From Proteromonas lacertae (lineage: Eukaryota): 64,000 nt of DNA. Below are positions 32,410 through 60,340 of the stretch, piece by piece. Within the stretch, counting starts at the first letter, position 1, and every line of letters starts with the position of its first letter. The position numbers and the translations under genes were made by a program. The notes below the pieces were generated by a model. The model was not told where the DNA came from. It was given only the letters and a program-made list of their open reading frames with translations, and searched no databases. The stretch is from contig NGBS01000595.1 of the NCBI GenBank assembly GCA_002245135.1, forward strand, positions 62,001 to 126,000, written 5' to 3'.

Positions 32410-32459
32410 CAAAATACTTACTTTATATTATTTATAAACTGTATATAATACTATCATGT

Positions 32460-37255: not shown

Positions 37256-37465
37256 ATATTCAATAAACAAAAGTTGAATGAAAAGATAGAAGAATTTTTA
37301 AATACTGAGATGTTATTCAAACTACCCATTACTCCATATCCCATATTTATACAATTTATAAACGTATAAGAGACTTTGTTTATGAAAATTCTAGTATATT
37401 ATGAAGTGATTGATAATTTCAAAGAGAGTTTAATATTATTTCAAAACTTTAAAGATAATTGAAAT
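37256..37465 (+). pseudogene. Axonemal dynein heavy chain remnant (DHC_N2 region, DNAH10-like), left part
   Basis: Translates EEFLNTEMLFKLPITPYP and DNFKESLILFQNFK, resembling inner-arm dynein tail sequence as recalled. Confidence 0.7.
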
Positions 37466-37692
37466 ATAATAATGAAAGAAAGGTGGTTATGTATACCTAT
37501 ACATAACCCCCTATTGATTTTTGATCGTTACATTTTGTTACCCAAAAAAATATTCGTTACATTTTTTCTTTTTTAAATTTTTTATATTATTTAGTAACAA
37601 CCCAGAATACATAACTAATATTGATACATTTTATTACTCAACAAACACACAATCAAATAAAGCAGTTAACTTTTACTTTGAGTATAATTATT

Positions 37693-38247
37693 TTAATGAT
37701 TCTTCTTAACTTTTTTGATTGACTTAACTCCATCGATTTCCAACTTACTATATAATTGTATTCTTGGTGGTATAACTTCTGAAGGGAAGTTATAATATAT
37801 GTTTATAGCTTGCCCAACTGCTTCATCCCATTTGAATATATCATCAACAAGGAATGTATGGAGCTTACTTCTGACTGATGCTGTCTGGTCTCCATAAAAT
37901 TTCATCACATCATGCCATTTGCAACCATTATCTCTAATAAACTCCAATTCTCTCTGAAATGTTAATCTTCTGCAGTATAACAATATCTCTGAACTGAAGC
38001 TGAGAGTACCATATGCTGCCGTGTATATTGAATCTAATTTAATAATACATTCATCCAAATAGTTCTGAAATAACTCTTGTTGTTTAATAGCCATCGCCTT
38101 GTATACACCTCTGGATCCTTTAGCTGCAAATGGTTGGATAATACCTCTAATATCTCTAACTTTTTTAATTAAGCCAGGAACACCATCCACTATCATCTGA
38201 AAATCTCTATGATATAACTCATCATAGGATCTTTGATGTTTAGACAT
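37693..38247 (-). CDS. TIR-encoded 184-aa protein of unknown function (copy 1)
   Basis: Intact ATG-started ORF, identical translation to 57625-58179. Confidence 0.75.
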   Translation of the reverse strand: MSKHQRSYDELYHRDFQMIVDGVPGLIKKVRDIRGIIQPFAAKGSRGVYKAMAIKQQELFQNYLDECIIKLDSIYTAAYGTLSFSSEILLYCRRLTFQRELEFIRDNGCKWHDVMKFYGDQTASVRSKLHTFLVDDIFKWDEAVGQAINIYYNFPSEVIPPRIQLYSKLEIDGVKSIKKVKKNH

Positions 38248-38547
38248 GTTAATATTGAAAATTAATGATAGAGAGTGAAACGGATATATTTTTTATTTTC
38301 TTGAAACCTAATTGGATGACTCCTATACGTGTTCCAATATGATTGGTCAAAACATATATCTTTATCAACTAACCAATTAATTGATATAAAATAAAAAAAA
38401 TATTCGTTTCACAAGATATTATGATTACTCCTAAAACTTACGTATTAATGGATTTATTAGTGGTACAGATCACATCAAGTGCCTGTACTATACTCATAAT
38501 ACCTCCTGAGACAAATAAGAAGCTTTTAGAAGAAAATATCAAAAATC

Positions 38548-39243
38548 ATGTTGTGTGGTCCAGACTATACTATCAATGAACCTCATTTACAAGTCAATGA
38601 GGATAAGAAGGAATGGAAGGTAATATTTCCTCAGTGCTTTAGACCACATGTTAGAACAAGTCTAGGTGATCCTTGGGTACAGAAGTATGTCAGCTGGGAT
38701 GATTTTAGAGAAGATGTAGAGTATGAAGAATTCATGTGTAAGAAATATAAAATCAAAAAGGAGGATCATTTTGACATTCCGAAGATGGATCCAGGTATGG
38801 AAGAATTTGTATGCAATCCTATGGGAAACCATGTTGGAAATATAAAAGATGTGGTCTTTGACAGCAAAATTGGTTATATGGTCTACAAGTGTAAGAATGA
38901 TAATTCAGAACCTCTATACCAATTAACATATCCTGAAGATGATAAAATTGAAGGAATACAATGCTACCTGAAGATATGTCCTGAAAGTAATAATTTTTTA
39001 ATGGATAACAATGCAAGAATCACAATACTTGGACCTCAGTTTCATTTAAAGAATCCATTATTTCAGATATGCAAAGAGCACAGTTCTTATGAGATTATAC
39101 TTCCAAGAGCTCCAGTTGTCTTAGATACAACATTACCTTACAATTGGGTTCAACAGCATATCAAAATATGTTGGGAGCCTAGCAAAAGCCATTTGATTGA
39201 AGATTTAATTGCTAAAGGTATTATAGTGGATCCTTGTGCATAA
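38548..39243 (+). CDS. TIR-encoded 231-aa protein of unknown function with internal repeat (copy 1)
   Basis: Intact ORF, identical translation to 56629-57324. Confidence 0.75.
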   Translation: MLCGPDYTINEPHLQVNEDKKEWKVIFPQCFRPHVRTSLGDPWVQKYVSWDDFREDVEYEEFMCKKYKIKKEDHFDIPKMDPGMEEFVCNPMGNHVGNIKDVVFDSKIGYMVYKCKNDNSEPLYQLTYPEDDKIEGIQCYLKICPESNNFLMDNNARITILGPQFHLKNPLFQICKEHSSYEIILPRAPVVLDTTLPYNWVQQHIKICWEPSKSHLIEDLIAKGIIVDPCA

Positions 39244-39869
39244 ACATGAGAGAAGTAAAATTATATCCGTTTCAGGATCAAAATATTTTTTGGGTTTATA
39301 TATTTGAAATTTTGTCGTTATGCTTCTAATCTAATTTGCAAAAAATGCTCAATTACATTATTATCTATTGAAAACATCACCAATCTTTTCGTAATATTAT
39401 GATGGACTCATATCTAAATAGATTTCAAAATAAACTAAAAATATCGATACATATATCATGATTTCCATATGGTGTGATATAACACAATAGAGTTCAAGCC
39501 AAATCACTTTTGTAACGAATCTATTTTTTCAATTATTAAAATTTCTTATAAGACGTATATTGCTTATCTATATAATGCTAATTAATTATGTATATCATAA
39601 ACACAACACCCTACACAAACACAATCAATCATTTGAACCAATTAGGACCAGAGATTAATAATGGAAGCGGACAGTACTCATCATCATCTTCCTCTGTGCT
39701 CACATCTTCCATTTTTTTTGTTTGATTTCTTTCTTTGAATTGTTCTCTTCTTTTTGAATTTAGGAGTAGTTGAAGTAGTGCACTTTCTTTTTGTAGATAC
39801 TATTTTCAGCTAGGTTTTTAAACAATGATACTGAGATTCCTTCAAATATCTTTACCCATTGATTTAGGA

Positions 39870-40594
39870 ATTTACATGTCATACGTAACTGCACTATCTA
39901 AACCAGTACTAACTTTATCTAATAACAATACTCGACTTGGACCTAATAAAGATTCACCTAATGTAACTCTTTTCTTTTCACCTCCACTACTACTGTATTT
40001 TCACAGATATTCAATCCCAACTTTTCTATCAACAGTTTGGTTTTATTACTCACATCAAATTCTAATCTGTAATGGCCTGTTTTTAATAAATTACCTTTAC
40101 CATTCAAACAATGAACTGAAAAGTCTAATGTTTGTTTCACAGTCAAATTGCCTAATTGAATGTCATTTTGACCACAGAAACTACACAATTTCTTCCAGTT
40201 CAAACTCTCGATTGGCTTACCATCACATTTCACACTTCCTGTATGTTTACTGGATGGAATATAACCTGCCAATGCCTTTAAGAACGATGTAGTACCAGAA
40301 GAAGGAGTGATAAGTCACATCCTTAAGAACCACTTGATTTTTCTTACTTGATAAACCTAATCCATCCACTACTTGACTGTAAACTCCAGTAACAATGTTT
40401 GGAATATCATTATACTCTCTTTTCTTCTTCTTTACCTCATAGGTGTAGTTTTTAATAACAATATCAACTTTTGGTAAGTCTGATAAAAATATCTTTAACT
40501 CCCTTGCATATTTCACATACTCTGATTTTTCTATATTTTCGTCATCTGTTATACATACACTAACTGGTAGATGATTAACATTACTCATTATCAA
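39870..40594 (-). pseudogene. ABCG/PDR transporter N-terminal fragment (cargo)
   Basis: SGTTSFLKALAG, GQNDIQLGNLTVKQTLDF, LGLNICENTVV, SGGEKKRVTLGE, LLLDKVSTGLDS; frameshifted and truncated. Confidence 0.85.
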
Positions 40595-41235
40595 TTCAGT
40601 TAATGTATTGGGTGTTTTTTATTTTACTATCTCCTGTATAATATATAGTTTAACATACATATAATTAATCACATTATTACTTTCTATTATAATCACTTCA
40701 TCCTGAAAGAAAAAATAATAAAAATATTTTAGAGTTTTGTTGTAAAAATTATAATTCCCCTATATAATTCCAACATAAATGGCACAAACCAAATCCATTA
40801 GCAAAATCACTAAAACTAATTATACTCCAAAAATTATATTAGTAAACGTTTGAGAACTATGAATAAAGGTAATAAAGTACAAATATCCTGTAAATACACC
40901 AATATTCCATAACTACATTAGCTTATTGCACTTTTTTAGCTTAAATTTAAACAGATGTACTTCCAAATTACCAATCTCAACTATTTAATAGTCTAATAGT
41001 GTATTACAAAATAATTTAGATGTTCCAATTCTCTAGGTTATAACATTGTGAATTAAGAATTGATTTAACTGCTTAAAATACTTCATGTTATTTAAACGCT
41101 TTAAGGTTAAGTTTTTTTTCAATGTTAAATCTACTTTACCATTACTTCAATATTTCTTAATTTAAGAATTTTCTGAAAAATTCTCAAACTTATGTTAGGT
41201 TTGAGTTGTTATAATTAAGCCTATTATTAAAATTA

Positions 41236-43330
41236 TTGTATCTACCACCTTTAAAAAGTATAAAAATACTAATATATTTCACTCCATATGAAGAAATAGA
41301 ATATAATGAAAATGTAGTATTTGAAATAAGTGGAATAAGTACTCAAACAGTAGAAATAAGAGGAAGAGGATCTCAATTACATTTAGAATTAGTAGATTTG
41401 AGAAAACAAGTAATCAATTTTGGTAAAGTAGAAGTGAATAGTGAGAATAATAAGAGTATAGAAATAATCAATCGTAGTTTATATACTTACAATTTCGAAG
41501 TAGTAAATGAATCAAATGAAGGAATGTTTGGTGATATAAACTGTGTAAGTATAAGTCCAAAAGGTGAAATAACAATAAAACCAAAACAAATGATTAGTTT
41601 GGATATAAATTTCCATCCAAATCAGAGATTATTAGCATTTGAGAATCATTACAATGTAAAAATCAATGGTGGTGAAGCATTATCATTCTTTACAGTAAAA
41701 GGCGCTTGTCAAGGTGTAGATGTAGTGATAGAAATCTCTTTATTACAATTTGGAGCAGTGTGTTTAGGTTCATCAGTAACTCGAAAGATCTTATTAAGTA
41801 ATGAAGGTGATAAACGAACCAAATTCCGATGGAATTCAGGTCAATTTGCTCCAAATTTCTCTATAATTCCAGTGGAAGGTACTTTACTACCAAATATTCC
41901 AATGTCATTAAATATAACGTTTACTCCTCAGAATTTGAGTAATGATATTCGATGTGATAATTTGAGATTGACATTATCAGGTTCTTGTGTAGGTCAACCA
42001 GAAGCAGGTGATAAAGAATTGAGATTTGAATGTGAAGTTCGAAAAGAGAATAGTCAAATAATCAAATTAAGTAATCCAACAAATGATAGTTGGTTTTTAC
42101 ATCCAACAATTCAAAATGAAGTATTTAGTGGAAATCCTTCAGTAACAGTTCCAGCGAAAGGTACAGTAGATTATACTGTAATATTCAAACCAACAACTTA
42201 TAATGGTGATGGAACAAAATTAGATTTATCAGCCAATGCCAGTCGACCTCCATCTGAAGCAGGAAATCGAAAAGATGGTAAAGGAAAGAAAGGAAAGAAA
42301 GAGACAAATGCAGGATTTAATTGGAATAATCCTCATAAAGGAAGTTTATTTATATCTTTACCTGATGGAAATACAGTGAATTATAATTTATTAGGAGCTT
42401 GTTCTTTACCTCAACCAATGGAAATTCCTTCAAATATTGAATTAGAAACAACATGTAAGAAATCTTTTGTATCCTTACCAGTATATAATTGGATGAAAAC
42501 AGCTCAAAGATTCAAAGTAGAACTTGGTGATTTACCAAATAATTCAACATTTATAAAAGTTCCAAATGTAATAAACATTCCAGCTTTAGCTTCAAGAGAA
42601 TGTCAATTGAATTTCTTAGCTTATAAACCAGGTGCAACAGAAATAATGTTAAGATTTATCTGTGAAGAAAGTGGTGAATATTGTTTCTATCAATTCACTA
42701 TCAATGCAACAAATGCTGATATAATGAATAGTTATGAATTAGTAACTCATGTTCGATAAGTAGCAAAACAAACAATAACAATAAATAACCCATTACCTCC
42801 AATCCTTGTGTTCGATTATCAGTAAGTAAAGAATTAAGTGGTCATAAAGATGGAAGTTATTCAATCGAATATCGACCATTATTAGCAGGTGAAAGTGAAT
42901 GTGATGTGACAATAATAACAAACGAATTAGGTGAATTTAACTACAAATTGAAACTAAAAGCATTAGAAAGTGGTTATGAAAGAGGATATAATATGTCATG
43001 TGGTTTAGGTGGTAAGATAGTAGAAGAAATCAAATTTACGAGTTATTGTCCAGCAAATACTGAATATAAATGTACAATCGAAGGATGTAAAGATTTTACA
43101 GTAGAGAATGTAGTGAAAGTAAATGGTTCAACAACTTGGGATGGAATTGCATCAATCGCCAAAGTGAGTTATGAACCATGTCAAATAGGTGATGTAAAAG
43201 CGATATTAAAAATCGATTCTCCTCAAGGTGGTTTATATAAATATCAATTATTTGGAAAATGTTTATCACCTCAACCATTAGGTCCATATACAGTAGGAAA
43301 AGGCAAACAGATCAGTGTTCCATTTTATGA
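41236..43330 (+). pseudogene. HYDIN: Hydin C-terminal fragment inside the Polinton
   Basis: LQFGAVCLGS, LTLSGSC, HKGSLFISLPDG, LPVYNWMKTAQRF, GGLYKYQLFGKCLSPQPLGPY; 507 open codons then stop and deletion. Confidence 0.88.
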
Positions 43331-44933
43331 ATATATTTCCATTACCTATTCCAAAGTAACTCATAGCTTTACTGAGTTGTTTTGCTTGATCTAAATTACT
43401 CACTGCGCTACCAAAATTAGTGAGTGAACTTGGAATTGTTTGTTGTGAACGTTTTACGTAGTTATCCATTTTGATTGCATTCTTGTGTTGATATGGTGTT
43501 GGTTTTAACCAATTCAATAAACCACCTGCATCTAGCAAACCAAAACAAGCAGTCAATGCACTGAATACTGTTCCTATACCTGCAACAGTTTGTAATGTAC
43601 CTGTTGGATCAGCTGCAACAGCAGTTTTTGCCATTGATGGCATAGCTTTTGATAATTCACTAATACCTTTAACTGCTGCTGCAGCAGTTGTTGCATCACC
43701 TCCATTTGCAGCTGCAGCTACAGTTGCTGCTGTTTTTAATGTATCACCTACATTTTTTGCATCTATATTTCCTATATTAGAAAATTTGTAGAAGAATGGA
43801 ACTAATTGAAATAAGTATCGAACATATGGATGAGTATTGAACATAAATGACACACCAAAGTTATACAACAAGTCTACAGGTAGCCATGATTTTTGAATTG
43901 CTTCAGGTAACATTGACTTAACTTTTTCTGAATTACCATAATACAAGTCAGTGATAGCAGGTAATCTACCACCTGACAGCATACGAATTATCTCATAGTA
44001 GTCGAAAATGAAGTACCACATTACATACAAGAACCCTGATGTTGGTAGTTTGGATTTTTTCCATAACCAATAAGCTAAACATGTCATTACTATTGCACGT
44101 ACATATTTCATTGCATGATCTACTTCAAACATTTGAGGAGTAACTCCACCTACCAAATATGATTTCATTGTATAGTATATTTGTGGAAATATCCTAAATA
44201 CATTCTCTACACACAGGAACAAATTACCAGCAAAACCCATAAAATCAGATTCACATAATGAATCGAGTGCTTTTTGAAATTGTGAATTTTCAAATTGTGC
44301 CCATGAACTACAAGCAGTTTTCACTAAACCAATAGCTATTTCATATTTTTGTCTATTATCTGCATTCACCCACTCTTGAGGAAGTGAGTGACCTAACTTC
44401 TCTCTGTTATAATCAAAGTTAATGAAATCTCTACTATTCTGTGATGCTATTTCATTCAGTTCTCTATATTTATCTTCATTAATTAATGTACACTGTCCTT
44501 CACCCATATCTATAACACTATTCATCAGTTCTTGATTTTTTGGATCTAATGCCCATCTATAAAATTTTGATCTTTCTAATATCTCTTGATCATCCATATA
44601 TCTTTGTGCCTTTTGATTATTCAATGCAATATATTCTTTTACTTTTTCAGCTCGATTCGGATCAAAATTATATGGATCTGAATATTGATTGATCTTACTT
44701 ACTCCATCAACTAATTCATTTTGCAAATACTCCTGCTGTAGTAATAGTTTGTTATAATATTCTATTGCATCTTTATCATTACCTGTTAATTTATCACAAG
44801 TTGAGGTCAACCAATCTTGTCTATAATTTTTATAGGCTGCTAATTGAGGATTCTTTTCTATAATCTCTTGTAGTGATTTATAATTTTGTAATTTAGGAAA
44901 TTTTTGTAACAAAGGATCTGTTACTCTATTCAT
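43278..44933 (-). CDS. Polinton protein of unknown function (551 aa, hydrophobic central region); last ~15 codons read through antisense Hydin
   Basis: Long ORF; paralogous to 47737-48880; similarity ends at GNGN. Confidence 0.7.
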   Translation of the reverse strand: MNRVTDPLLQKFPKLQNYKSLQEIIEKNPQLAAYKNYRQDWLTSTCDKLTGNDKDAIEYYNKLLLQQEYLQNELVDGVSKINQYSDPYNFDPNRAEKVKEYIALNNQKAQRYMDDQEILERSKFYRWALDPKNQELMNSVIDMGEGQCTLINEDKYRELNEIASQNSRDFINFDYNREKLGHSLPQEWVNADNRQKYEIAIGLVKTACSSWAQFENSQFQKALDSLCESDFMGFAGNLFLCVENVFRIFPQIYYTMKSYLVGGVTPQMFEVDHAMKYVRAIVMTCLAYWLWKKSKLPTSGFLYVMWYFIFDYYEIIRMLSGGRLPAITDLYYGNSEKVKSMLPEAIQKSWLPVDLLYNFGVSFMFNTHPYVRYLFQLVPFFYKFSNIGNIDAKNVGDTLKTAATVAAAANGGDATTAAAAVKGISELSKAMPSMAKTAVAADPTGTLQTVAGIGTVFSALTACFGLLDAGGLLNWLKPTPYQHKNAIKMDNYVKRSQQTIPSSLTNFGSAVSNLDQAKQLSKAMSYFGIGNGNIFIKWNTDLFAFSYCIWT

Positions 44934-45782
44934 TCAATTATCATATGCCTGAACATCTGCTTCTGTAACATATTCAGGCCAGTTCAAAAGATAGCTTCTT
45001 GGATTAGATGTATCTAATTCTGCTAATGGGAATGTTCCTCTTAAATGTCCTTTTTTATGTTCACGATCTAGCATATCATAAAAATTAATATGATAATTGT
45101 TAGGTAACATTGAAGCATAATTATTAGTTAATGCATATTGAACTTCTTTTCGAGCTTGTCTATTCAAACCTGGACTAAATAATTTATCATAATTCCAATT
45201 ATAATCATATCCTACAGTTTCTTTTGGTATATATGGTTGAATATATTCTGGTATTTGACTTGGCTGTAATTGTGATGTTCCATTATAAGCAGCACTAGCA
45301 GCATCATACATTTGTTGTCTTGGATTAGTAATAATGACATGCTCATTAGGACCAACACTTTGACCCACTCTTAATGGTATAATACCACTATTACCACCTA
45401 ATTTCTTAGTAGCCAAGAGATGCCTCCGTGGGATACTCTCTAATTTTAGTTTATTTCTTCTGTGATGTTTCTTATGTTTGAAATGAACATGTTTTCTTCT
45501 ACCTGAACCTGTCTTTGGATATCCATCTAAAGACATACCAAATAAACCATAATTTACTTTAGGCCATAAATGATATTCACTACCCATACCATTAATTAAA
45601 TTACACACATCTGATCGTGCTTCTGGAACACTATGACCACATTGATATTTGAAATAATGTAAGTAATCTGTCAATTGATCTATTGTTCCTCCATAGCTGG
45701 AATACTTTGATATAATATCCAATGGCAATCCTACATTTTTACATACATTTTCTAAATCTTGTTTTGTATTATTCATAACCAT
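44934..45782 (-). CDS. Polinton protein with basic His/Lys/Arg tract (possible virion core protein)
   Basis: 282-aa ORF abutting next gene; TGSG-RRKHVHFKHKKHHRR; paralog at 47070-47444. Confidence 0.65.
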   Translation of the reverse strand: MVMNNTKQDLENVCKNVGLPLDIISKYSSYGGTIDQLTDYLHYFKYQCGHSVPEARSDVCNLINGMGSEYHLWPKVNYGLFGMSLDGYPKTGSGRRKHVHFKHKKHHRRNKLKLESIPRRHLLATKKLGGNSGIIPLRVGQSVGPNEHVIITNPRQQMYDAASAAYNGTSQLQPSQIPEYIQPYIPKETVGYDYNWNYDKLFSPGLNRQARKEVQYALTNNYASMLPNNYHINFYDMLDREHKKGHLRGTFPLAELDTSNPRSYLLNWPEYVTEADVQAYDN

Positions 45783-46279
45783 TTGCTTAACTGATTCATA
45801 ATAGCATCTACATTATATCTTTGTTGTTGTTGTATTGGTTGTGTGTTATTTTGGAATGTTGGCTGGGCTGTTGCCGCCGCGGCGGCAGCAGCACCTGCCA
45901 TCATTCCGGCGTAACTTGCAGCATTTGAACTTTGATTATTATAACCTGCACCAGTTGTAGGTATTGAAGTTGTATTATTATAACTGGGGGCAGTTGTAAC
46001 ATTCGATGCTTGAATATTTGAAGTGGCCGGCGCACTCGTCGAATTTGTTGTTGAAGGAGTAGCACCAAATATACCTCTGAACCAATTGTATATATTACTT
46101 AGTGATGTAGTAAAGAAACCCATTATACTATCTAACTTAGAATGAATCCATTGTGGCATATCCATTGGAGGAACTTTTCTCCAATGATTATATACCAAAC
46201 TGACAAAATTAGGAGTTAACATTGATACAAAAGATGCTGCATTAACCCATGCTGGGGATAAACCAAATATCCATTGCAT
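45773..46279 (-). CDS. Polinton protein, Ser/Thr/Ala/Gln-rich, probably 5'-disrupted
   Basis: 168-aa ORF overlapping start of next gene by 10 nt. Confidence 0.5.
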   Translation of the reverse strand: MQWIFGLSPAWVNAASFVSMLTPNFVSLVYNHWRKVPPMDMPQWIHSKLDSIMGFFTTSLSNIYNWFRGIFGATPSTTNSTSAPATSNIQASNVTTAPSYNNTTSIPTTGAGYNNQSSNAASYAGMMAGAAAAAAATAQPTFQNNTQPIQQQQRYNVDAIMNQLSKWL

Positions 46280-47069
46280 AACACCACTATATCCTATTCC
46301 TACATTTAAAATACTTTAATATTGCACCAACAGTACTATCAGGAAATAATATATCAAACACTTGTGAAATAGAACCTAATGTCATAGTGCATAAGCAGAA
46401 CTTCACACCAAATTTCAACCAATCGTATGTTGTATTACCTGAAAAATATCATCTTCATCTCCAATAGTATCATAAAATCTATTGAAACTGGATTTAGGAT
46501 CATAGATGTCTGATCCATATGTACCATTGCCTTTGTCAACAATAGCTGTTTGATTGGCAAGATGACTAAGGTCTAGTTTTATACGTGTGTTATCTTTCAC
46601 CTTGTTATAGATGATCTTTTTCAATTTACTCTTAAGTGCATTATGTTACACAGAGGAATTCTCAAAATCAATTGCTTCTTCTTATGGTGATGGTTGTTGC
46701 TTATGCTTTCGTTTAACACCCATAAAATATATAAAAACAATATAAAAAAATAGAGAAACAATACTATTAGAAATATAGCCGTTATTGATATTATAGATGA
46801 TATTATTTTTTCTTCTGTTCTACAGGCTGCCATCCATCATCATCAAAATCATCAGAATAAAAATCAGAATCAAATTCATCATCTTCTTGTTCTTGTTTTT
46901 GTTCTTGTTCTTCTTCATCAAAATCAGAATCAAATTCATCTTCTTCTTTAATATCATCTTTTTCAGTATTATTGGCTTCTCTCCAATACTATCTTATTTC
47001 TTTTTGTTCTTCTGGTGTTAGATATTGTATTATATTCTCAAGTTCATCATTTGTTAATTTTGTAATATC

Positions 47070-49430
47070 ATGTTTAACATCAGTAAACATGTTCATTTCA
47101 AAAAACATAGAAAACATAATAGGAAGAGTAAATTGAAATTAAAATCAATTCCACATAGGCATTGCTTGGCTACTAACGTTTTAGGAGGTGTTGTACAACT
47201 AAATATGGGAACAACAGTAAAACTTAATGAACACTTTGTTGTTCCCAATCCAAGACAAAGTGTAGATGAAGGTAAAATACCAATCTATATACCAACTCAA
47301 TTACCAACTAATGTACAACGATATATACCAGAACAGCCTGTTGGAAACAATTATAATTGGAATTATAATAAATTGTTTGGACCTGGTTTAAATAGACAAG
47401 CTAGAAGAGAGATTCAAAATCAAATCACAATTAACTATGATTAACAATTATCTAATAATTGTCACATTGATTTATATGATATGAGAGATCCACCACATAA
47501 GAAAGGTAATTTAGATTAAGTATACAAAAACTATAAAAATAATATATTATCTAAAGGATGGGACTATATTATGGGAAATAATAAGGAAATGGATGAATAT
47601 TATAATAAGCTATTATTGCACAAGAGTACTTGCAAAATGAATTAGCAGATGGTGTTAGTAAAATACATACTTATTCTGATCCATCTAATCTCGATGCTGA
47701 AAAAGTTAAATAATATATTGCATTAAATAATCAAAAATGGGTAGAGTAATGAACGATGATCAAATAAAATACCAAACACTCTTTTTTAAATTCGCTACAG
47801 AGAATCCAGACATTATGTCAAAAGTTCCAGATATAGGTCAAGGTGAATGTTCACCAATAAATGAAGATTATTATAGAATGCTTAATGAAGTAGCTTCACA
47901 AAATAGTAGAGATTTCATTAATTTTGATTATAATAGAGAGAAATTTGCTCATGAACTTCCTGAAGATTGGATGGCAGCTTCTAATCCAGAAAAAGTATCG
48001 ATAGCATTTGGTTTGCTGAAAACAGCATGTTCATCATGGGCAAAATTTGAAAATTCACAATTTCAGAAGGCATCGGACTCTTTGAAGGAAACTGATTAAC
48101 AGGTTTTGTAGGTAACTTATTGTTGTGTGTAGAAAATTTGTTTAGGATATTTCCTCAGATATATTATACATTCAAAGATTATTTAGTTGGTGGAGTGACT
48201 CCTCAAATGTTTGAAGTAGATCATGTAATGAAATATGTATGTACAATATTACTTTCATGTTTGGCTTTTTGGTTATGGAAGAAGGCAAAATTGCCAATGA
48301 CAGGCTTCCTGTATGTAATGTGGTACTTCGTGTATGATTATTACGAAATTATTCGTATGCTGTCAGGTGGTCGTTTACCTGCTATAACTGACTTATATTA
48401 TGGTAATTCAAAAGCATTACAAAACTGGTTACCGATAGATTTAATTTATAATTTTGGTACATCATTTTTGTTCAATAAACATCCCTATATCAGACATTTG
48501 TTTCAAGCAGTGCCATTTTTGTTTAGGTTTACTGGTATGTCACCTCCTAATTTAAGTAATGTTAGTTCAGGATCGATATTGAAAGCTGCTCCAGAAGTGT
48601 TAGCACAGGATCCAACAGGTACAGTACAGACAGTTGCTAGTGTAGCAACAGTGATGACAGCACTCACTGGAGTCATTGGTTTGTTGGATGCACGTGGTTT
48701 ATTAAACTTCCTGAAGCCAGAAGGACATAAACATAAGAATAGAATACAATTTGCTAACTACGTTCCAAAACAACAACAATCAATTCCAAGCTCATTCACT
48801 AATTTTGGTAGAGCAGTGAGTAATTTAGATCAATTAAAACAAGTTAATCAAGCTTTAAATTGGTTTCAAAGAGGTAATGGAAATAAAAAATTAATTTCAC
48901 GTAGGAAAGTTTTGTATAACAGTATCGCTTCAGATGCCTTATCGAACTTTGATATAGAGTTAATTGTGAAAAATGAGTTCAATAATTTTCATGGAAAGTT
49001 CATGGGAGTCTTTTGCTGGGACAAGCTTGTACTTCCTATACCCAAAAAGAAGAATCAATGGGGAATCATAATCAATACACTCACCACACAAGCTAGCCCT
49101 GATTCTATAGGTCATTGGGTGGTCTTAGTAGTTGACAATATCAAGAAACAATTCCTGTACTATGATTCATTTGGTGAAGATCCTCAACACTTGGAAGAAT
49201 TTAAAAAGAATTTGAAAAAATTAAAGAAGTATCATAATGAAAAGTATGAACTTAAAATCAATGGAGTACAGAATCAAAATTCAAATACTGCCAACTGTGG
49301 ATTTTTTGCTATTAATTTTTGAAAAATATTTTAAGAGATCAGTGTAGTTTCAAAAAGGCTACTGACTATAATACAATAGTGGGTGAAGCAAAAATTAAGT
49401 TAATGAAAAAAGCAATTTGGTTTAATATAA
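47070..49430 (+). pseudogene. Inverted paralogous gene pair ending in an adenain/Ulp1-like cysteine protease
   Basis: Paralogs of 282-aa and 551-aa ORFs with stops/frameshifts; C-terminal IINT..GHWV..YYDSFG..Q..NCG catalytic motifs. Confidence 0.85.
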
Positions 49431-49469
49431 AAAGAAATATTCGTTTATTTTTTTTGGTGTTATTCTATT

Positions 49470-50760
49470 GATTTATCATCTTTTCTAATTCTGGGTCTTT
49501 GTAATATTCTTCTGAACCAAGTATCTCGTGCTTCATCTTTTTTCACTAACTGCAACTCATAGTGCTTAAAATGAATAAGTGAAAAATCTGGTATCTCTCT
49601 ACCATCTTGATCTCCTAAACAATACGAATATCTATTTATTTTAATTATTTTGTATACATGATCTGATCAGTATATATTCTTATCCAATTTACGTCCTCGT
49701 TCCTTAAATCTCACTAAGTCACCAACTTCGAAATTTTGATCACTTTTTTCAAGTTTTTCAAAATTTTTCAAATTATAGTTTAATGATTTCTGTAATATTT
49801 GCTTTTGCAATTCAGGACTATGAAATACCTCATTTGGTGTATATCCTTTGATTCCTGGTAATGGTTTATTGTTATAGTCATTTACCACTTCTTGTATTAT
49901 TTGATTAAATTATATTATATAATTTGGATCTTTAGGTACATGTATATCTCCATGGTCAATATCAGCTACATATTCAGGTGCTTCAAAACCAATATCTACC
50001 AAGTGTTTGTACAATAATTTTTTTATCACACTGACTGACCTATCCAATAGAGACTCTACCTTATGCTCACTGGTCTCTTTCATATAGTATTGTATACCTT
50101 CTTGACAAAATTTAAAAACATTATAAAAACCACTTTCTTGATCTGACAAAATACTTACCACATTTTTATGTGTTTTGTTACCATAATTATCATACTCATA
50201 GTACCAATTTAAAAATGCAGGCATTATATCATATTCACCTCTTTTACCAGCAACTGGTGTAACCCATACTTTTCTAGAGTTTAATTCAATTAAATACAAG
50301 TGAGGTAAATTAGGCTAGAAAAATACCAAGTCCATTTGGAAATACCCTGGCTTTTTGATAGTAGCGAACGGATTATTTTTTTGTACTTGAAATCAACTAC
50401 TTGCTTCCCAACTTGTCTCCTTAGATATTCCCTAACAACATCTGGTGGTGGTGGTGTATCATTGAGGTTTTTTACTTGTTGGGTCATTTTCACAAATTCA
50501 TCATCTTTTAAATAATATTATTTTTTATAAAGTTCATCTAGTTGTTCTCTATATTGAGCAATTTGTCCTGCCATTTGGTCATCATACGAAGCTTCTCTTG
50601 GTGCAATCTGTATATTCGGTGCTCCATTGTTAATATATGCTGCAAGTGATAAGTTCCCGTTTGTAGGAGCCTGTTTAATTGGATAAGGAGTTTGGATGTT
50701 ATAGCTGCTATATAAATGTGGATCATAAGTATTAGTGCTAGACATATAGACCAAAAACAC
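49470..50760 (-). pseudogene. Retroviral-like (rve) integrase, frameshifted
   Basis: FQMDLVF, IELNSRKVW, ILSDQESGF, DRSVSVIK, YNNKP..GYTPNEV, FEVGDLVR across three or more frames. Confidence 0.85.
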
Positions 50761-51175
50761 AAAACAAGAATAATGATGAAATTCATTAATATCATTAGTA
50801 TTAAGCTACTTTAAGAAATTATAGGTGATAGTAATAAGATTTTCGTTATTTATTTTAAAACACCATCTAATTGAATCATTATATGTTTTATGCAGATATT
50901 CATTGATTTCTTTGAAACATGGACCCAACTTGATTTGTATTGGTTTTTTGGGTGCTGGTGCTGGTGCAGATTGAATCGAATGATGAATGTTGCTTCTGCG
51001 ATGTTTAGGATGAAATCTATAGACTTAGAAAAAATCAAATTTACCCACCAACGCGATATGTGGTCTTAGTACGTGCCATAGGATGAGTTAAGAAAAACAT
51101 TAAGAATTGGAATAATTTTAATAATTTATCCGTTTCAAAAATAAACACAATTAATATGAAATGAGTTATTTATTT

Positions 51176-54100
51176 TTATATGGGAACTACATCATCATCA
51201 TCCTTCTTCTCTTCTTCAATATTTTTTATAACATCATTATATGGCTCTGAGTGATAAACATCAATATATTTTCTTTTCACATAGAAAATCGTAAATGCTA
51301 ACTTATTCATGCGGACTGTATAAATGCATTGACTTGCTGTTCTAAATGAGAATTGCTCTACATATACTTTTTTAGACTCAGTGAGAATATCATAATAATA
51401 TTTGAAATCACACGTTTGTAATCGAAATCCTTTAGTCACACCTTTGGCTCTAGAATCACTTAACAACAATGAATTTGTTCCATCGATCCTTTGTTTTTCA
51501 TATGCATACATTTTTGCTTTCAAACCACAAAATTTTGTAATTGTATACAAACCATTCTTATTTTCTTCTAATTTCATCAAATTCAATTCTGAAGTTCTGT
51601 GTGAGTTTGTATATCTAATACCTTTGGATTTTAAAAAATCACAATTAATATTACCAGTATCCATTCTACCTTCAAATGATGGGTCTTTCATAATATCTTC
51701 ATAGATATCCTTTGTAAATACCTTGAATATGAAGCTATCTGTATCAGTCATTAAAAGCTTGAGGCTTGACCCATATTTTCTATACAAAGTACCATACCAA
51801 AATTTACTCATTAAATGCTTGCTTTCAAATAATATACACATTCCTATATAACTTGGTTTGTTAACCTGACATTTATATTTTTTAAATTTGCATATTCTTA
51901 AATCACAACCATCTATACTAACAAACCCACTAAAATAAGGATTGCTAGAACACTTTAAGAAATCTTCTTCATTATTGACTAATTTTGATCGACATCGATT
52001 TTCTGTATTTTCACACATTTTTCCATAGGCTGAATTGAGTAACAATTTGAATGTATCTGCTTCTGCTTCTCTCTTGTGTTGTTTGGCTTCTCTACGTAAC
52101 AAGTGACACTTCATCACAAAATCAAAACAGAAGTGATATTCTTTAAAGGATATGATACGATGTATTTTTGTGATCTTATAACCTAAGGATACACAGAAAT
52201 TCAAATATTGATAGTGTACAACATATTTTGGTTTTCTTGATAAATCCAATATAATTCTAGGTGTGTTGCTTTTAAGTTGTTTTTTCTTATTCACCAATCC
52301 TAGCTCCATAGCCCAACTTTGTTGTAACTGTGATAAGTTTTCGTACTTTATACACTTCTTTTCAGGTAATAATGGATATTCATCGAATTTGTGAGTGTTT
52401 GAGGGAGGCTCGATATTCACCTCTAATATATAACCTCTGGAGTCTTTATTATCCCATTCATCATTTACATGCTCTTCTTTGTCACTAATCATTTCTTCAT
52501 ATGTTTTGATGTTATATATTTGACTGTAATACATATCCATCAATTCCTGCTCATTTCCTTCTTCCCACTTGAAATCAGCATATGGTAGTTTCATTGTAGC
52601 CATTGTACTTGGATATAGTGAATTGTAATCTACATAGCAAATATATGATTCTATCTGAGGAGGATGTTCTGCTATATAGGGTGGGTCCATATAGTGATTA
52701 TGTGCTTCTTCTAAACGACTCGATCCAACCATAGATATGCCACCTATTAAACCACTGTGAATAAAATCGTATTTATCTTGGTCGCTAAGCAACTCTATCT
52801 CCACTGGACAATATTTCAAAAACACACTCCATGACAAACCAGGTGATGATAAGTGCCAACAAGGGTCTAAATCAAAGTTTTTAAAAACAACTTTTCTGAA
52901 GTGATCAAATACTGAGGATAAAGTGAGAACATCCATGGCTAAATAAAATTTATTATAATCCATTAAATCTTTACACTGAATGACATCCCACAACTCACAG
53001 CATGATGCATACTCTATATCTGTTATATTATCACTCTGTTTTAATTTTGAAGCAAAATCTTCTTTTTTAGGTAAACGGCTAGTTTTATAATATTTGTCCA
53101 AACTATCACAATATTCATATGGGAAGTGTCCCTTCTCTAACCCCCACTTATCTATGAAATCTTCCACTGACCATCCACTACTGGTCAATTTTTGATAGAT
53201 GAATTGTTCTCTGTCAGTAACAAAGTCATATACTGGTTTGAATAAATATTTTTTATTTGAGTGTTCATTTGCTTCTACTTTTAATGACTTTACTAAACTA
53301 TCCAATGATGCTGGCATGAACTGACAACTGTCTATGAATCTTAACTTCTTGAATTTGATCATCAAAAATTTATTATCTGTTTTCATTAAAACGGATAGTT
53401 TTGTTCGATATCTCTTTTTCTTAGGTTTAGGTCTTGGTTCAGGTTGCTGAGGTAATATAGGTGGTGATACAGATGATCTATCATTTAATGGTGACAATGT
53501 CGGTGATACATTTACAACATTATCTCTATGTATCATTTCATGTAACATATGGAATGCTTCTTCATCATTGTTTTCTAGTGGGATCAATATTTATTATTGT
53601 CACAATGGGATCCATGCTTCTTGGAGTATCACATTCTTCAATGTCACTATCTTCTTCAGTATCAGCATTATAGTTGGCTATCAACGCTTGTTCCTCTTCC
53701 ATCTTTTTTTCTTCTTCTATGCTATCATTATAGTTAGATATTAAATCAGGAATTGGAATATTGATTTGATTCTGGTTTGATTCTTGAATTTCAATTTCTG
53801 GCAGATCTGCATCCTGTATAGTGTTCATGTTCTCCAAAACCCATTGTGCTTCATATTCTTTGTCTTTCTTAGCTAATGCTCTGATAATAAAATTATTATC
53901 GTAATTTTTGCTATTATGTGCCAACACTGGAATATACATATTTCTTAAATCACAATGCCAGTTACACTTATTACATAGAGTTGCTATGTATTGACCAGTG
54001 AAGTGGTCATGGTGCTTAACAGGTCTCAAATCTTTATCTTTACTGATAAATTGCTTATGACAATATGCACATTCTTTATTCGCATCATCTGATTCAATAT

Positions 54101-56060
54101 ATCCCCACATCTTTTGTGGGTGTGCTATCTTGTCTTCATATATTTTCATTATATTATTTTGAATCTCTAAGAATTTGTTAACTAATCTTGTTTCTAACAC
54201 TGATGGATCTTCACCTGGTTTTAATTCATCAAAGTATGTTTTTTCTGGAATTGTACCAGGATACTGAGAACTGATGTGTATGCACCAGGTGCTCATGACA
54301 TGTTTCTTGTATGCTCCTTTTGCATTTTTGATAACTGTATTTGATGGCAAATCTTCTTGGTATGTCTCAGTGTCCCAGTATAGTACCACAGGCATCATTT
54401 GCATAAATTTATAATTTTTGAATGATATCATAGTTCCTGGATCTGGGAACTCTCTGATAATACCTCTGTTGTTGGATACTTGACAATTTATTTTTGATGA
54501 TATTGGAATGATTTATCGCTGAATAATCTACAGAAGCAATATGGACATCTTTCTACATAATTACTACATTTTTGTTTTAATGGTAATAAAAATGCATTGA
54601 GGTTGATAATTGGGTAAAAATGATTTCCATAGAACAATACATTGGCATGAGGCCAAATTTTGAATTTATCTATCTGAGTGACATATAATGGTATAGCTTC
54701 ATCAAAATCCACTGTAAATATGTTAAGAGTGATTTTGTTATTTTTCTCAAACTGACGTATACCATTTTGATGATTTATAGGATCTAATGGAAATTCTAAG
54801 TAATCTGTGTTATAAGATTGCACATAATGTTTGTAAAAGCTTGCATGATTTCTATTCTTAGGAAATTCCATATAATGAATTGATGCAGCTACTGCATACA
54901 GAAAACATATATTTTGTCTACCAACTGCTTTACTGAATTTCAATTGTATAATGCATCTTTTCTTACTTATGTCATTAGGTAACTCTACTTTTTCGATTTC
55001 ACTATCATTGGTAGCAGAACCAGCTGTGACAATAGAACGAGCCAAATTAATTACTACTTCATTAATCCATCTAAATCTTAAATCTGATTTTTGAGTATTG
55101 AATATCTCACCCATATTGTCATATAAGTGGTTATATAATTTTTCTGGTTAAACACCACCTAAATCACCTTTAGTGCAAATTACAATATCAGTGTCAAAAC
55201 TCTTCCAGTTTGTCATAGTTTCTTCAGATTCTGCAGTTTCTATTACATCTGCTGAGATATAAGCTACTTTGAAAGTAAAATAAATTTTTGCATATCCAAA
55301 GTAATCTATGAAATTTCTAATTTTTACCATACACTCTGGAATTGACTGTTGTTGTTCTTCTTCTTGCTGTTGTTGCTTATTTCTATCTCTTGTATATCCA
55401 GTTAACTCTTCAAACACTCTTTCTGGTGATTTTGCGATTTCAAATTTTGGATGATCTTTCTACATTCTCCATTAATTCTCTTCTCTGTGGTATAGGTAAT
55501 CTTCTTATTTGTTGTGGATGATTTTCTAACACATCTAATGCCTCCAATGTATCTTTCATTTCTTCTTTGGTTTCATTACTCACATTTGGTGCTTGAGGAT
55601 GTGTCTCTGGTATATCTGACACAGGTGGTGCAATTTGATGTGGAGACTCTGGAATTTCATCATCTTCTAAATATCGTTGAAATTGTTCAGCGCTCACTCT
55701 ACGAACTTTGGGTGATGGAGGTGGCTCAGCTTGGATGGTTGGTCTTCTCAGTGGTGTTTGGTACTGCGGGTTCTGCACTATCTGCACAGGTGGTCTAGGC
55801 AGTATAGGCCTAAATGAACTTTGACTCAAAGTGTTGACTGGGTTTTGCAATGGAGGTGGTTGTTGCTGTACTGATTGTTGCTGGGTATACAATGGTGGTG
55901 GAGGTGCATACATGGGCATAGGCGGTGGTGCCATCATAGGTTGAGGTGCATAGTAGTACATGGGCTGCATAGGAGGCATGCCAGGGTTGTATGAACCTGT
56001 AGTACCTGCTCCATACATAGGATGAAACATATTATAAGGATAAGGGTATCCTGGGTACAT
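51176..56060 (-). pseudogene. Protein-primed DNA polymerase B with endonuclease-VII-like insert and Pro/Gln-rich N-terminus; four disablements
   Basis: WDTET, HHDHFTG..CNKCN, HNSKNYD, FIDS, KGHFPYEY, DYNSLYP, KLLLNSAYGK, TDTDS; frameshifts near 55443, 54490, 53580 and in-frame TAA at 55148-55150. Confidence 0.93.
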
Positions 56061-56628
56061 CTTTGACTTCAAGAATCTTGAATCTTGAATGTTTAATCTG
56101 AGTGGCTAGTTTGGTACTCTAAACCAATAGAAATCGATTGCAATATGATTGGACCACGTATCTGCATTAGCCAATGAAATATAATTAAAAATCTAAAAAT
56201 GCAAAAATATATCCGTTTCAAAATTTTTATAATTTTTTTAAATTATGAACATAGACAATGCTAGAAAAAATTTTGATATGTGGGAACAGTATATACATAA
56301 CATTGTGAATAGTTTACCGAGTGATGAAGAAATTTTAAAAGCATCGCCAGAAGAGATATCCAGATATGCTAAGAAGGCAGCAAAATTAATACCATTGCTT
56401 TAAAAAAATTAATGATGAGTGTGATGATGAATTTAGTGAGAAAATTCAAAAATTAAAAAATGAAATGTTAGCTAAAAAAGAAGCATCTGCTTTATTACTT
56501 ATTGAGTTAATGGATCAGCTTAATTTTTAATTATTTTCTTATGTTATTATGACTATAGTTATATATAAATATATAAACCCAAAAAATATTTTGATCCTGA
56601 AACGGATATAATTTTACTTCTCTCATGT

Positions 56629-57324
56629 TTATGCACAAGGATCCACTATAATACCTTTAGCAATTAAATCTTCAATCAAATGGCTTTTGCTAGGCTCCCA
56701 ACATATTTTGATATGCTGTTGAACCCAATTGTAAGGTAATGTTGTATCTAAGACAACTGGAGCTCTTGGAAGTATAATCTCATAAGAACTGTGCTCTTTG
56801 CATATCTGAAATAATGGATTCTTTAAATGAAACTGAGGTCCAAGTATTGTGATTCTTGCATTGTTATCCATTAAAAAATTATTACTTTCAGGACATATCT
56901 TCAGGTAGCATTGTATTCCTTCAATTTTATCATCTTCAGGATATGTTAATTGGTATAGAGGTTCTGAATTATCATTCTTACACTTGTAGACCATATAACC
57001 AATTTTGCTGTCAAAGACCACATCTTTTATATTTCCAACATGGTTTCCCATAGGATTGCATACAAATTCTTCCATACCTGGATCCATCTTCGGAATGTCA
57101 AAATGATCCTCCTTTTTGATTTTATATTTCTTACACATGAATTCTTCATACTCTACATCTTCTCTAAAATCATCCCAGCTGACATACTTCTGTACCCAAG
57201 GATCACCTAGACTTGTTCTAACATGTGGTCTAAAGCACTGAGGAAATATTACCTTCCATTCCTTCTTATCCTCATTGACTTGTAAATGAGGTTCATTGAT
57301 AGTATAGTCTGGACCACACAACAT
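56629..57324 (-). CDS. TIR-encoded 231-aa protein (copy 2)
   Basis: Identical translation to 38548-39243. Confidence 0.75.
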   Translation of the reverse strand: MLCGPDYTINEPHLQVNEDKKEWKVIFPQCFRPHVRTSLGDPWVQKYVSWDDFREDVEYEEFMCKKYKIKKEDHFDIPKMDPGMEEFVCNPMGNHVGNIKDVVFDSKIGYMVYKCKNDNSEPLYQLTYPEDDKIEGIQCYLKICPESNNFLMDNNARITILGPQFHLKNPLFQICKEHSSYEIILPRAPVVLDTTLPYNWVQQHIKICWEPSKSHLIEDLIAKGIIVDPCA

Positions 57325-57624
57325 GATTTTTGATATTTTCTTCTAAAAGCTTCTTATTTGTCTCAGGAGGTATTATGAGTATAGTACAGGCACTTGATGT
57401 GATCTGTACCACTAATAAATCCATTAATACGTAAGTTTTAGGAGTAATCATAATATCTTGTGAAACGAATATTTTTTTTATTTTATATCAATTAATTGGT
57501 TAGTTGATAAAGATATATGTTTTGACCAATCATATTGGAACACGTATAGGAGTCATCCAATTAGGTTTCAAGAAAATAAAAAATATATCCGTTTCACTCT
57601 CTATCATTAATTTTCAATATTAAC

Positions 57625-58179
57625 ATGTCTAAACATCAAAGATCCTATGATGAGTTATATCATAGAGATTTTCAGATGATAGTGGATGGTGTTCCTGGCT
57701 TAATTAAAAAAGTTAGAGATATTAGAGGTATTATCCAACCATTTGCAGCTAAAGGATCCAGAGGTGTATACAAGGCGATGGCTATTAAACAACAAGAGTT
57801 ATTTCAGAACTATTTGGATGAATGTATTATTAAATTAGATTCAATATACACGGCAGCATATGGTACTCTCAGCTTCAGTTCAGAGATATTGTTATACTGC
57901 AGAAGATTAACATTTCAGAGAGAATTGGAGTTTATTAGAGATAATGGTTGCAAATGGCATGATGTGATGAAATTTTATGGAGACCAGACAGCATCAGTCA
58001 GAAGTAAGCTCCATACATTCCTTGTTGATGATATATTCAAATGGGATGAAGCAGTTGGGCAAGCTATAAACATATATTATAACTTCCCTTCAGAAGTTAT
58101 ACCACCAAGAATACAATTATATAGTAAGTTGGAAATCGATGGAGTTAAGTCAATCAAAAAAGTTAAGAAGAATCATTAA
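57625..58179 (+). CDS. TIR-encoded 184-aa protein (copy 2)
   Basis: Identical translation to 37693-38247. Confidence 0.75.
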   Translation: MSKHQRSYDELYHRDFQMIVDGVPGLIKKVRDIRGIIQPFAAKGSRGVYKAMAIKQQELFQNYLDECIIKLDSIYTAAYGTLSFSSEILLYCRRLTFQRELEFIRDNGCKWHDVMKFYGDQTASVRSKLHTFLVDDIFKWDEAVGQAINIYYNFPSEVIPPRIQLYSKLEIDGVKSIKKVKKNH

Positions 58180-58406
58180 AATAATTATACTCAAAGTAAA
58201 AGTTAACTGCTTTATTTGATTGTGTGTTTGTTGAGTAATAAAATGTATCAATATTAGTTATGTATTCTGGGTTGTTACTAAATAATATAAAAAATTTAAA
58301 AAAGAAAAAATGTAACGAATATTTTTTTGGGTAACAAAATGTAACGATCAAAAATCAATAGGGGGTTATGTATAGGTATACATAACCACCTTTCTTTCAT
58401 TATTAT

Positions 58407-58700
58407 TGAAATAACCAAGACATTTACATTAGATAATATCTTTATAATGAATTTAGCAAGATTTGAAGATCAATATGATGAGATAGTAGTTGGTGCCCAA
58501 GATAAAGCAAAGATTGAAAATATGATATGAGAAAGAAAAGAAATTAAATGAAAAATACAAATAAAAAAATGAAAGTGGAATAGTGTTGATAATGGTTTTA
58601 GAAGAATTATAGTAGAATAAGATGATAATTATTCTTTCTTCTTCTAGAAATATTATTACCAAATTGATGAAAAATACATTTTCAATAATCAGAATTTATA
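58407..58700 (+). pseudogene. Axonemal dynein heavy chain remnant, right part
   Basis: EITKTFTLDNIFIMNLARFEDQYDEIVVGAQDKAKIENMI continues the left flank once the element is removed. Confidence 0.72.
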
Positions 58701-59519: not shown

Positions 59520-59669
59520 TAATTAAGTTATATCTTGACGTGTCTATCATATACAAAATGTTAATATAAAAGTAACAATTTTTCATTAAAAGAAGTGTAA
59601 TTGTGTATTTAGTTTGTTTTGAAAGTTTCTGGTAGACAAACGGCCAACTCTGACAAACGGCGCACAACA
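59520..59669 (-). repeat. Right terminal inverted repeat of the TGT...ACA (Ginger-like) family
   Basis: ...GGCCAACTCTGACAAACGGCGCACAACA, reverse complement of 31864 onward. Confidence 0.88.
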
Positions 59670-60340
59670 AATAATATTTTAAGAGTAATGACTATTTCAA
59701 CTTCAGATTCTTCTCCTTCACATGATTCACTCTCTTCATTGTTATTGTTATAAACCTTATGTTTCTTAAAACAAAATAATTCATCTGCTAAATTAATATC
59801 GCTAATCCCACTAAAATTATTTAATATATATTTTATAATAGTATTACTTTTTTCTTCACCAAGACTGTTTTGTATTTGTAGAAACTATAAAATATATAGT
59901 AATGGCTACAGACCATTAGGCTCGAATGTTGTGCCACCAAGCTAGACCACGAGTAACGCATCTTTTTTTATAACTTGTTTGATCAAACCTCAATTCTATT
60001 TTTCACAATCTTTATTTATTCAATAACGGTTGGACGTAACGCAATTATAACCGTTGCAAACGGTTACACTATCGGTTACGCGTCGGTTACACTACTCAGA
60101 TGTAACCGTTGACCAACCGTTACACATTTACTCAATTATACTCATTCTTTCACATATACACCTAGACTCGTTTTAGCTTTCCCTGTTGTTTATGATTTTG
60201 AATTCGATTAAGCTTTCCCTTTATATATATATATATTATAATAAACTCAAAACAACACAATTCAATGATAGAATGATTTAAGGAATTATAATCTATATTC
60301 AATTCTAAGTCATCTGGAAGATTCAACATTCTTCTTACTC

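What the first reader, a model, noticed from the sequence alone, without database searches (positions are those of the whole stretch)
37466..58406. Gene-capturing non-autonomous Polinton: pristine 1.84-kb TIRs and TSD around a dead core plus host cargo
Seen: exact TSD TGAAAT, TIRs with no difference I could find, but pPolB with four disablements, a frameshifted integrase, no recognisable capsid or ATPase, and ~4 kb of non-Polinton DNA (ABCG and Hydin fragments) next to the left TIR. Established: Polintons make 6-bp TSDs and are thought to replicate by protein priming, and in adenoviruses panhandle intermediates homogenise ITRs. Inference: this is a defective element mobilised in trans after its core decayed and after it captured host sequence, a Pack-type or satellite Polinton.
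Basis: partly seen in the sequence, partly recalled or inferred. Interest (0 to 1): 0.9.

Follow-up and report, generated by a model that had tools for sequence, protein, structure and literature searches.

The report
Broken Polinton holding neighbouring host DNA
A broken virus-like transposon in a gut protist has identical ends and holds 4 kb of host DNA that continues a dead gene lying right beside it, so the DNA was likely patched in on the spot by repair rather than carried in from elsewhere.

Summary
The anatomy is real: 1,840-nt TIRs with 0 mismatches, TSD TGAAAT, broken pPolB, integrase and protease, no packaging ATPase, and about 4 kb of ABCG and Hydin fragments. The flanks are two pieces of one decayed axonemal dynein gene (weak matches), so this looks like one true insertion.

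First, the Hydin piece inside (about aa 4060-4760) is the collinear, same-strand continuation of a Hydin pseudogene (about aa 450-2600) that ends 200 nt left of the element. Second, the cargo has no transposon ends. It sits at the inner edge of the left TIR between two copies of an 8-nt word that is both element and Hydin sequence. Without it the element is 16.9 kb.

That fits single-copy Pack-TIRs made by local repair, and nothing shows the cargo-bearing form ever moved. Identical TIRs around a broken core need end-copying, mobilisation in trans, or assembly error; the first and last are published for virophages of a related protist. No genome or reads were available, so copy number is untested.

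The parts
37460..37465 (+). left target-site duplication TGAAAT
58407..58412 (+). right target-site duplication TGAAAT
37466..39305 (+). left TIR, 1,840 nt; terminus ATAATAATG; 10-bp hairpin at 37485-37508; holds ORFs A and B
56567..58406 (-). right TIR, identical
37693..38247 (-). TIR ORF A, 184 aa, unbroken, no known family (second copy in the right TIR)
   Evidence: one weak NCBIfam match far below cut-off
38548..39243 (+). TIR ORF B, 231 aa, unbroken, no known family (second copy in the right TIR)
39298..39305 (+). left copy of the 8-nt junction word ATATATTT
39306..43330 (.). host-derived insert, 4,025 nt (4,033 with one copy of the junction word); no transposon ends seen
39780..40618 (-). 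decayed 5' fragment of an ABCG transporter gene; the low-coordinate end is approximate
41242..43338 (+). Hydin 3' part (aa about 4062-4763 of P0107); 1 stop, 1-2 frameshifts
43331..43338 (+). right copy of ATATATTT; reads as Hydin N-I-F and as the 3' end of element gene X1b
43334..44933 (-). gene X1b, about 530 aa, unknown; its last codons are interrupted by the insert
44934..45812 (-). gene X1a, about 280 aa, unknown, unbroken
45773..46720 (-). gene X1c, broken (2 stops, 2 frameshifts)
47082..48885 (+). X2, decayed inverted paralogue of X1a/X1b (68-75% nucleotide identity)
48886..49420 (+). cysteine protease of Ulp1/adenain type, in frame with X2, frameshifted at its 3' end
   Evidence: Pfam C48 E 2.4e-6
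49480..50490 (-). rve-type integrase, 3 stops and 2 frameshifts
51176..56105 (-). protein-primed DNA polymerase B in pieces, with a proline-rich ORF at its 5' end
56243..56530 (+). small ORF Y, frameshifted
32835..37258 (+). flank: Hydin pseudogene 5' part (aa about 452-2602 of P0107)
37259..37459 (+). flank: decayed axonemal dynein heavy chain 10 fragment, left of the target site (weak match)
58408..58570 (+). flank: later part of the same dynein, right of the target site

Best explanation
This is a defective Polinton-type element of 16.9 kb, bounded by identical TIRs and a TSD, into which 4 kb of neighbouring host DNA was likely inserted in place by microhomology-guided repair, and it likely never moved with that cargo. 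Step 1 (shown in outline): an element with pPolB, rve integrase and protease integrated into a decayed dynein fragment just behind a Hydin pseudogene. Step 2 (junctions shown, mechanism inferred): a break or stalled fork at the inner edge of the left TIR was repaired by switching to a local template carrying an ABCG fragment and the 3' part of Hydin, then returned through the 8-nt word shared by Hydin and the element. This happened at or after integration. Step 3 (inferred): the TIRs are identical because one end was recently copied onto the other, either during helper-supplied replication before integration or by conversion in place.
For: The Hydin parts outside and inside are on the same strand, in order and non-overlapping: monotonic in 100 of the 100 homologs with hits at all four required probes (of 120 tested), no minus-strand hit above 45 bits. 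The 8-nt repeat marks both junctions; 0.45% of window positions lie within 5 nt of an end of that word. The right copy lines up with the FKN[VI]F motif of Hydin homologs after a one-base slip. With the insert left out, X1b ends in a stop inside the TIR and TIR identity runs 6 nt further (that hexamer covers 0.3% of positions). Both flanks independently best-match dynein heavy chain 10, in order. Cargo-free size is 16.9 kb against 16,862 +/- 1,678 bp for intact vertebrate Mavericks (PMC8097293). Single-copy Pack-TIRs arise mostly by transposition-independent gap filling with cis bias and microhomology (PMC8277862).
Against: The donor site was not seen: the middle of Hydin (about 1,440 aa) is not in the regions scanned, and no genome is held. 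The inside Hydin part looks less decayed than the outside part (2-3 breaks in 2.1 kb against about 17 in 4.4 kb; p 0.03-0.08), which could mean two different gene copies. The dynein matches are weak (left E 3, right E 0.02; Pfam 21 bits against a cut-off of 32) and about 70 residues between them are missing. A third TGAAAT at 39305-39310 is unexplained. Insertion exactly at the TIR edge would also suit capture on a panhandle intermediate. The model of PMC8277862 in which capture is followed at once by transposition also starts from a nearby template.
Confidence: 0.55

Rival explanations
1. The element is young and largely intact. Many of its stops and frameshifts, and possibly the perfect TIR identity, come from assembly or polishing of a multi-copy repeat. 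The cargo would still be a local insertion.
For: Sanger re-sequencing confirmed none of the fragmented conserved virophage genes tested in EMALEs (PMC8547959 section 10); false consensus in protist viral inserts is described (PMC10120064 section 7). 10 of 13 approximate frameshift sites have a run of 4 or more identical bases within 10 nt, against 34% of background windows. Only two pPolB breaks, both frameshifts, fall inside the homology-checked part.
Against: Nine in-frame stops were tallied in the core, three in the integrase. X2 also has deletions against X1. No ATPase is present, which base errors would not cause. Real slippage also favours base runs (own knowledge).
Confidence: 0.18
2. 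One reading: a helper-dependent element captured the host DNA and was then replicated and re-integrated in trans with its cargo (a Pack-type or satellite Polinton), landing near the donor by local hopping.
For: Identical TIRs with a broken core (10-42 differences expected under decay in place). The insert sits at the stem-loop boundary of a would-be panhandle. A related but also decayed element with an ATPase lies 2 kb away. Capture followed by transposition is described for multicopy Pack-TIRs (PMC8277862).
Against: It needs re-integration 200 nt from the other part of the same gene. Multicopy Pack-TIRs lay distal to their parents in that paper. The element would be 124% of its cargo-free size. 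No second copy was seen, though only unrelated public collections could be scanned.
Confidence: 0.17
3. The cargo junctions are an assembly or amplification chimera that joined nearby segments through short shared words.
For: The neighbourhood is scrambled (Hydin fused to dynein, ABCG beside Hydin) and no reads could be checked. Amplification chimeras join nearby DNA at microhomologies (own knowledge).
Against: The insert falls cleanly inside the TIR end with nothing visibly lost from the element, and the TSD and target gene are coherent.
Confidence: 0.05
4. Two separate insertions form a composite: the left TIR is a remnant flanked by its own TGAAAT pair (37460 and 39305), and the core with the right TIR belongs to another copy.
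For: TGAAAT occurs exactly at 39305-39310, and the host DNA on both sides of the left TIR is collinear Hydin.
Against: The dynein fragment continues to the right of 58412; the start of the cargo gave no dynein match in Pfam. The TIR and X1b join seamlessly when the cargo is left out.
Confidence: 0.05

Closest known systems
Polintons/Mavericks (PMC8097293, passages; PMC6431247, passages)
   Same: pPolB, rve integrase, cysteine protease, TIRs, 6-bp TSD, short repeated end motif, about 17 kb without cargo.
   Different: No packaging ATPase; no capsid recognised; end motif ATA-ATA instead of AG or AGT repeats; TIRs longer than the 46-1,447 bp of intact vertebrate elements and carrying two ORFs.
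MELD viruses of Blastocystis (PMC8502044, section 10)
   Same: Host of the same wider lineage; PolB plus integrase; virion genes of those viruses are not recognisable by primary sequence.
   Different: Host here branches outside the named Blastocystis in an HSP70 tree. No sequence comparison with those viruses was made.
EMALE endogenous virophages of Cafeteria (PMC8547959, passages and section 10)
   Same: TIRs 0.2-2.3 kb, TSDs of variable length, truncated elements whose TIRs regenerated, one type lacking the virion module.
   Different: No Pfam virophage capsid match here. The foreign inserts described there are retrotransposons, not host gene fragments (supplements not seen).
Single-copy Pack-TIRs and repair-mediated duplications (PMC8277862, passages; PMC2671141, abstract)
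   Same: Host fragment inside a TIR element, nearby source, microhomology at a junction, little or nothing lost from the element.
   Different: Described for cut-and-paste TIR elements and genomic repeats in animals. Here the carrier is a Polinton, the insert is 4 kb (up to 619 bp in PMC2671141), and the parent copy has not been seen.

Membership tests
Polinton/Maverick | protein-primed family B polymerase | tested here: met
   Pfam PF03175 E 2e-20; 41% to a 1,293-aa relative; broken
Polinton/Maverick | retrovirus-like (rve) integrase | tested here: met
   profile E 3e-22; cluster representative is Pfam rve; direct Pfam, NCBIfam, PDB and plasmid searches missed it; broken
Polinton/Maverick | TIRs and 5-6 bp TSD | tested here: met
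   an 8-bp reading is also possible
Polinton/Maverick | adenain-type cysteine protease | tested here: met
   Pfam C48 E 2.4e-6; two profiles from related loci hit the same stretch
Polinton/Maverick (autonomous) | A32-type packaging ATPase | tested here: not met
   profile from 21 loci hits only the neighbouring remnant, E 1e-21; no Walker A motif in six frames
Polinton/Maverick (autonomous) | [quoted passage not shown] | tested here: inconclusive
   none of 19 profiles from 32 related loci, one of them a virophage capsid, hit a new gene; no positive control; single-sequence folds failed
single-copy Pack-TIR (gap filling) | microhomology at a breakpoint | tested here: met
   8 nt at the right junction; left donor unknown
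single-copy Pack-TIR (gap filling) | parent sequence nearby in cis | tested here: inconclusive
   the other part of the same gene is adjacent, but the donor copy itself was not seen
single-copy Pack-TIR (gap filling) | single copy; cargo-free element at the orthologous site | not testable with these tools
   no genome held
mobilised Pack element (Pack-MULE type, multicopy Pack-TIR) | same cargo-bearing structure at several loci with different TSDs | not testable with these tools
   no genome held; one copy in the window

The most novel reading that the evidence does not exclude
A helper-dependent satellite Polinton family with no ATPase or capsid, whose gene-bearing TIRs are kept identical by panhandle replication, which keeps four unknown genes (A, B, X1a, X1b) intact, and which picks up host DNA at the panhandle junction and re-integrates with it.
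Probability: 0.15. Interest if true: 0.7.

Novelty: new member of a known kind. Interest (0 to 1): 0.36.

Why it matters
If the best explanation holds, it extends repair-driven capture of neighbouring DNA from cut-and-paste transposons to Polintons and warns that cargo between TIRs does not prove transduction. That is a modest result. If the cargo-bearing form proves multicopy, Polintons would become shown carriers of host gene fragments; I found no such report in four literature searches. The locus also adds a Polinton lineage with unknown genes from a little-sampled gut stramenopile.

Tried and rejected
No genome was held. No sequencing run was listed, which is no evidence either way.

No close relative was found in public contigs with single-sequence queries: TIR end in metagenomes, pPolB, ORF B, X1b, integrase. 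Only the pPolB alignment reached 32 distant loci.

Folds of ORF B and of the 63395-64000 ORF failed (mean pLDDT 33.5 and 31.5), so no fold search was run. Atlas look-alikes stayed under 0.9. Rfam found nothing in 31-64 kb. Four look-ups of earlier findings returned nothing.

My first guess that the right flank continues Hydin was rejected; it matches dynein. My first guess that the host is Blastocystis proper was not supported by the tree. An outer Pack element bounded by the ends near 31865 and 59673 lacks a TSD. Strand skew did not decide which side continues the left flank.

The '113 of 113 collinear' count was built with a position filter and is not used; one search replaces it. ORF A was queried in the wrong frame, so that row is void. 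The p-values for uneven decay are post hoc because intact genes were picked for being intact; on stops alone they are 0.05-0.18.
Full report
OBSERVATION. The two arms at 37466-39305 and 56567-58406 are 1,840 nt long with 0 mismatches. TGAAAT lies directly outside both; shortening the TIR by one base gives an equally exact 8-bp duplication. The termini read ATAATAATG, a short repeat of the kind that allows jumping-back in protein-primed replication (PMC8097293 passages; the match is my inference). Each TIR holds two unbroken ORFs of unknown family, A and B. Their third-position GC (0.28-0.29) resembles pPolB (0.27) rather than three host genes (0.16-0.19).

CORE GENES. pPolB matches Pfam DNA_pol_B_2, and its pieces map in order onto single relatives of 1,200-1,300 aa. 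That confirms two frameshifts; the stop at 55148 and the frameshift near 55450 lie upstream of the aligned part and are inferred. An alignment of 15 pPolBs fetched 32 related viral loci. Profiles built from their ORFs find the integrase (E 3e-22; the cluster representative is Pfam rve) and the protease region. The A32 ATPase profile finds the ATPase of a neighbouring remnant (E 1e-21) but nothing in the element. No capsid was found, but no capsid-type profile hit the remnant either, so that test is inconclusive. Capsids of Blastocystis MELD viruses are not recognisable by sequence (PMC8502044 section 10). The integrase has three stops and two frameshifts. The rest of the core is an unknown gene block X1 and a decayed inverted paralogue X2, in frame with the protease.

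HOST. The named best hits of the mitochondrial HSP70, apart from one fused protein from a bird assembly, are Blastocystis proteins at 70-71%. In a 29-row tree the window and two unnamed proteins form a long branch sister to the eight rows that hold the named Blastocystis (support 100/99). The host is therefore a Blastocystis relative outside those sampled; I cannot name it.

TARGET SITE. Searched separately against all PDB sequences, the 200 nt left of the TSD and the 160 nt right of it both best-match axonemal dynein heavy chain 10, in order: residues 1286-1327 and 1415-1465 of 9fqr_K2 (Pfam DHC_N2 E 1.5e-4). Each match is weak (E 3 and 0.02-0.03) and about 70 residues are missing between them, but their agreement supports one real insertion into a decayed gene.

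THE CARGO IS LIKELY LOCAL. Against P0107, 32835-37254 covers aa 452-2602 and the inside piece at 41242-43325 covers aa 4062-4763, on the same strand. Of 120 Hydin homologs, 100 had hits at all four required probes and all 100 were in monotonic order with no filter on query position; no minus-strand hit exceeded 45 bits. The missing middle was not found in the regions scanned. An element that replicated and re-integrated freely would rarely land 200 nt from the other part of the gene it carries (inference). Against this, the inside part looks less decayed (p 0.03-0.08), so two Hydin copies are possible.

THE JUNCTIONS LOOK LIKE REPAIR. ATATATTT stands at 39298-39305 and 43331-43338; 0.45% of positions lie within 5 nt of an end of that word. 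The right copy reads as Hydin N-I-F after a one-base slip, matching FKN[VI]F in the homologs, and is also where X1-X2 similarity ends. With the insert left out, X1b closes on a stop inside the TIR, and TIR identity runs six bases further. The cargo ends show no inverted repeat. The cargo-free element is 16.9 kb and the cargo makes it 124% of that; intact vertebrate Mavericks measure 16,862 +/- 1,678 bp. One caution: X2 runs on into a protease, so X1b may once have done so too, in which case something was lost at this junction. Local source, microhomology and little loss are the signature of single-copy Pack-TIRs made by gap filling without transposition (PMC8277862 passages) and of repair-mediated duplications (PMC2671141 abstract).

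IDENTICAL TIRS AROUND A BROKEN CORE. Simulation gives 6-8% stops per substitution. One to four stops in pPolB and integrase then predict 10-42 TIR differences under decay in place; the low figure rests on the unverified pPolB stop. So either the ends were copied after decay, or the dead core was replicated in trans, or the breaks are partly false. Truncated EMALEs carry TIRs that 'must have regenerated', EMALE TIRs reach 2.3 kb, and Sanger sequencing confirmed none of the fragmented conserved genes tested (PMC8547959; supplements not seen). False consensus in protist viral inserts is also described (PMC10120064 section 7). Ten of 13 approximate frameshift sites lie by base runs, against 34% background, which fits error and real slippage alike. 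The nine tallied in-frame stops and the deletions in X2 argue that much of the decay is real. A 2026 preprint suggests replication modules can move without the virion module (10.64898/2026.10.13.758929 passages), and the panhandle model for such elements is summarised in PMC4046053 (passages).

VERDICT. Shown: TIRs, TSD, broken pPolB, integrase and protease, absent ATPase, the cargo, its junction word, and Hydin collinearity with the flank. Inferred: capture in place by repair (0.55), end-copying of TIRs, and the order of events. It works like a single-copy Pack-TIR and is a defective member of the Polinton group. I found no report of host cargo carried by a Polinton in four searches (listings, plus passages of PMC6431247), which cover only openly licensed papers. 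Interest 0.36.

Noticed in passing
window 59900-64000: Second, decayed Polinton remnant: pPolB 5' half (34-62% aa to the main element across segments), A32-type ATPase at 62367-63137 (-) with one stop, and an open ORF at 63392-64000 (-) that may be a capsid protein but matched nothing.
   Followed up: partly
window 32200-37459 and 58408-58600: Intronless-looking axonemal pseudogenes (Hydin, dynein heavy chain 10) fused together in a host that is sister to sampled Blastocystis, a genus reported to have lost nearly all flagellar genes (PMC12129017 passages). Either the host is flagellated with intact copies elsewhere, or these are relics of flagellum loss.
   Followed up: partly
window 28970-29594: MITE with 250-nt TIRs (97%) and a 5-bp TSD AGCTG, inserted in a transposase-like gene at 28058 onward; its TGT...ACA ends recall Ginger elements (recalled, not tested).
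   Followed up: partly
window 31865-31983 and 59549-59673: Two ends of the same MITE family, 87-88% alike, face each other around the whole Hydin-dynein-Polinton block; no TSD. They may have taken part in scrambling the region.
   Followed up: partly
window 39305-39310: A third TGAAAT starts on the last base of the left TIR; unexplained.
   Followed up: partly
window 38277, 39264, 51127, 56210, 56599, 57586: The word TATCCGTTTC occurs six times, all between genes of the element and nowhere else in the window; a likely promoter or terminator signal.
   Followed up: no
window 37466-39305 and 43334-45812: Decay is uneven: A, B, X1a and X1b show no break in 3.7 kb, against 22 hand-counted breaks in 9.5 kb of the other genes (post hoc). 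The left arm may be younger or still selected.
   Followed up: partly
window 25896-27685: Fragments that look like a hAT transposase on the minus strand (motif recalled, not searched).
   Followed up: no
window 32459-32596 and 33898-34036: A 139-nt internal duplication (81%) in the Hydin pseudogene region.
   Followed up: no
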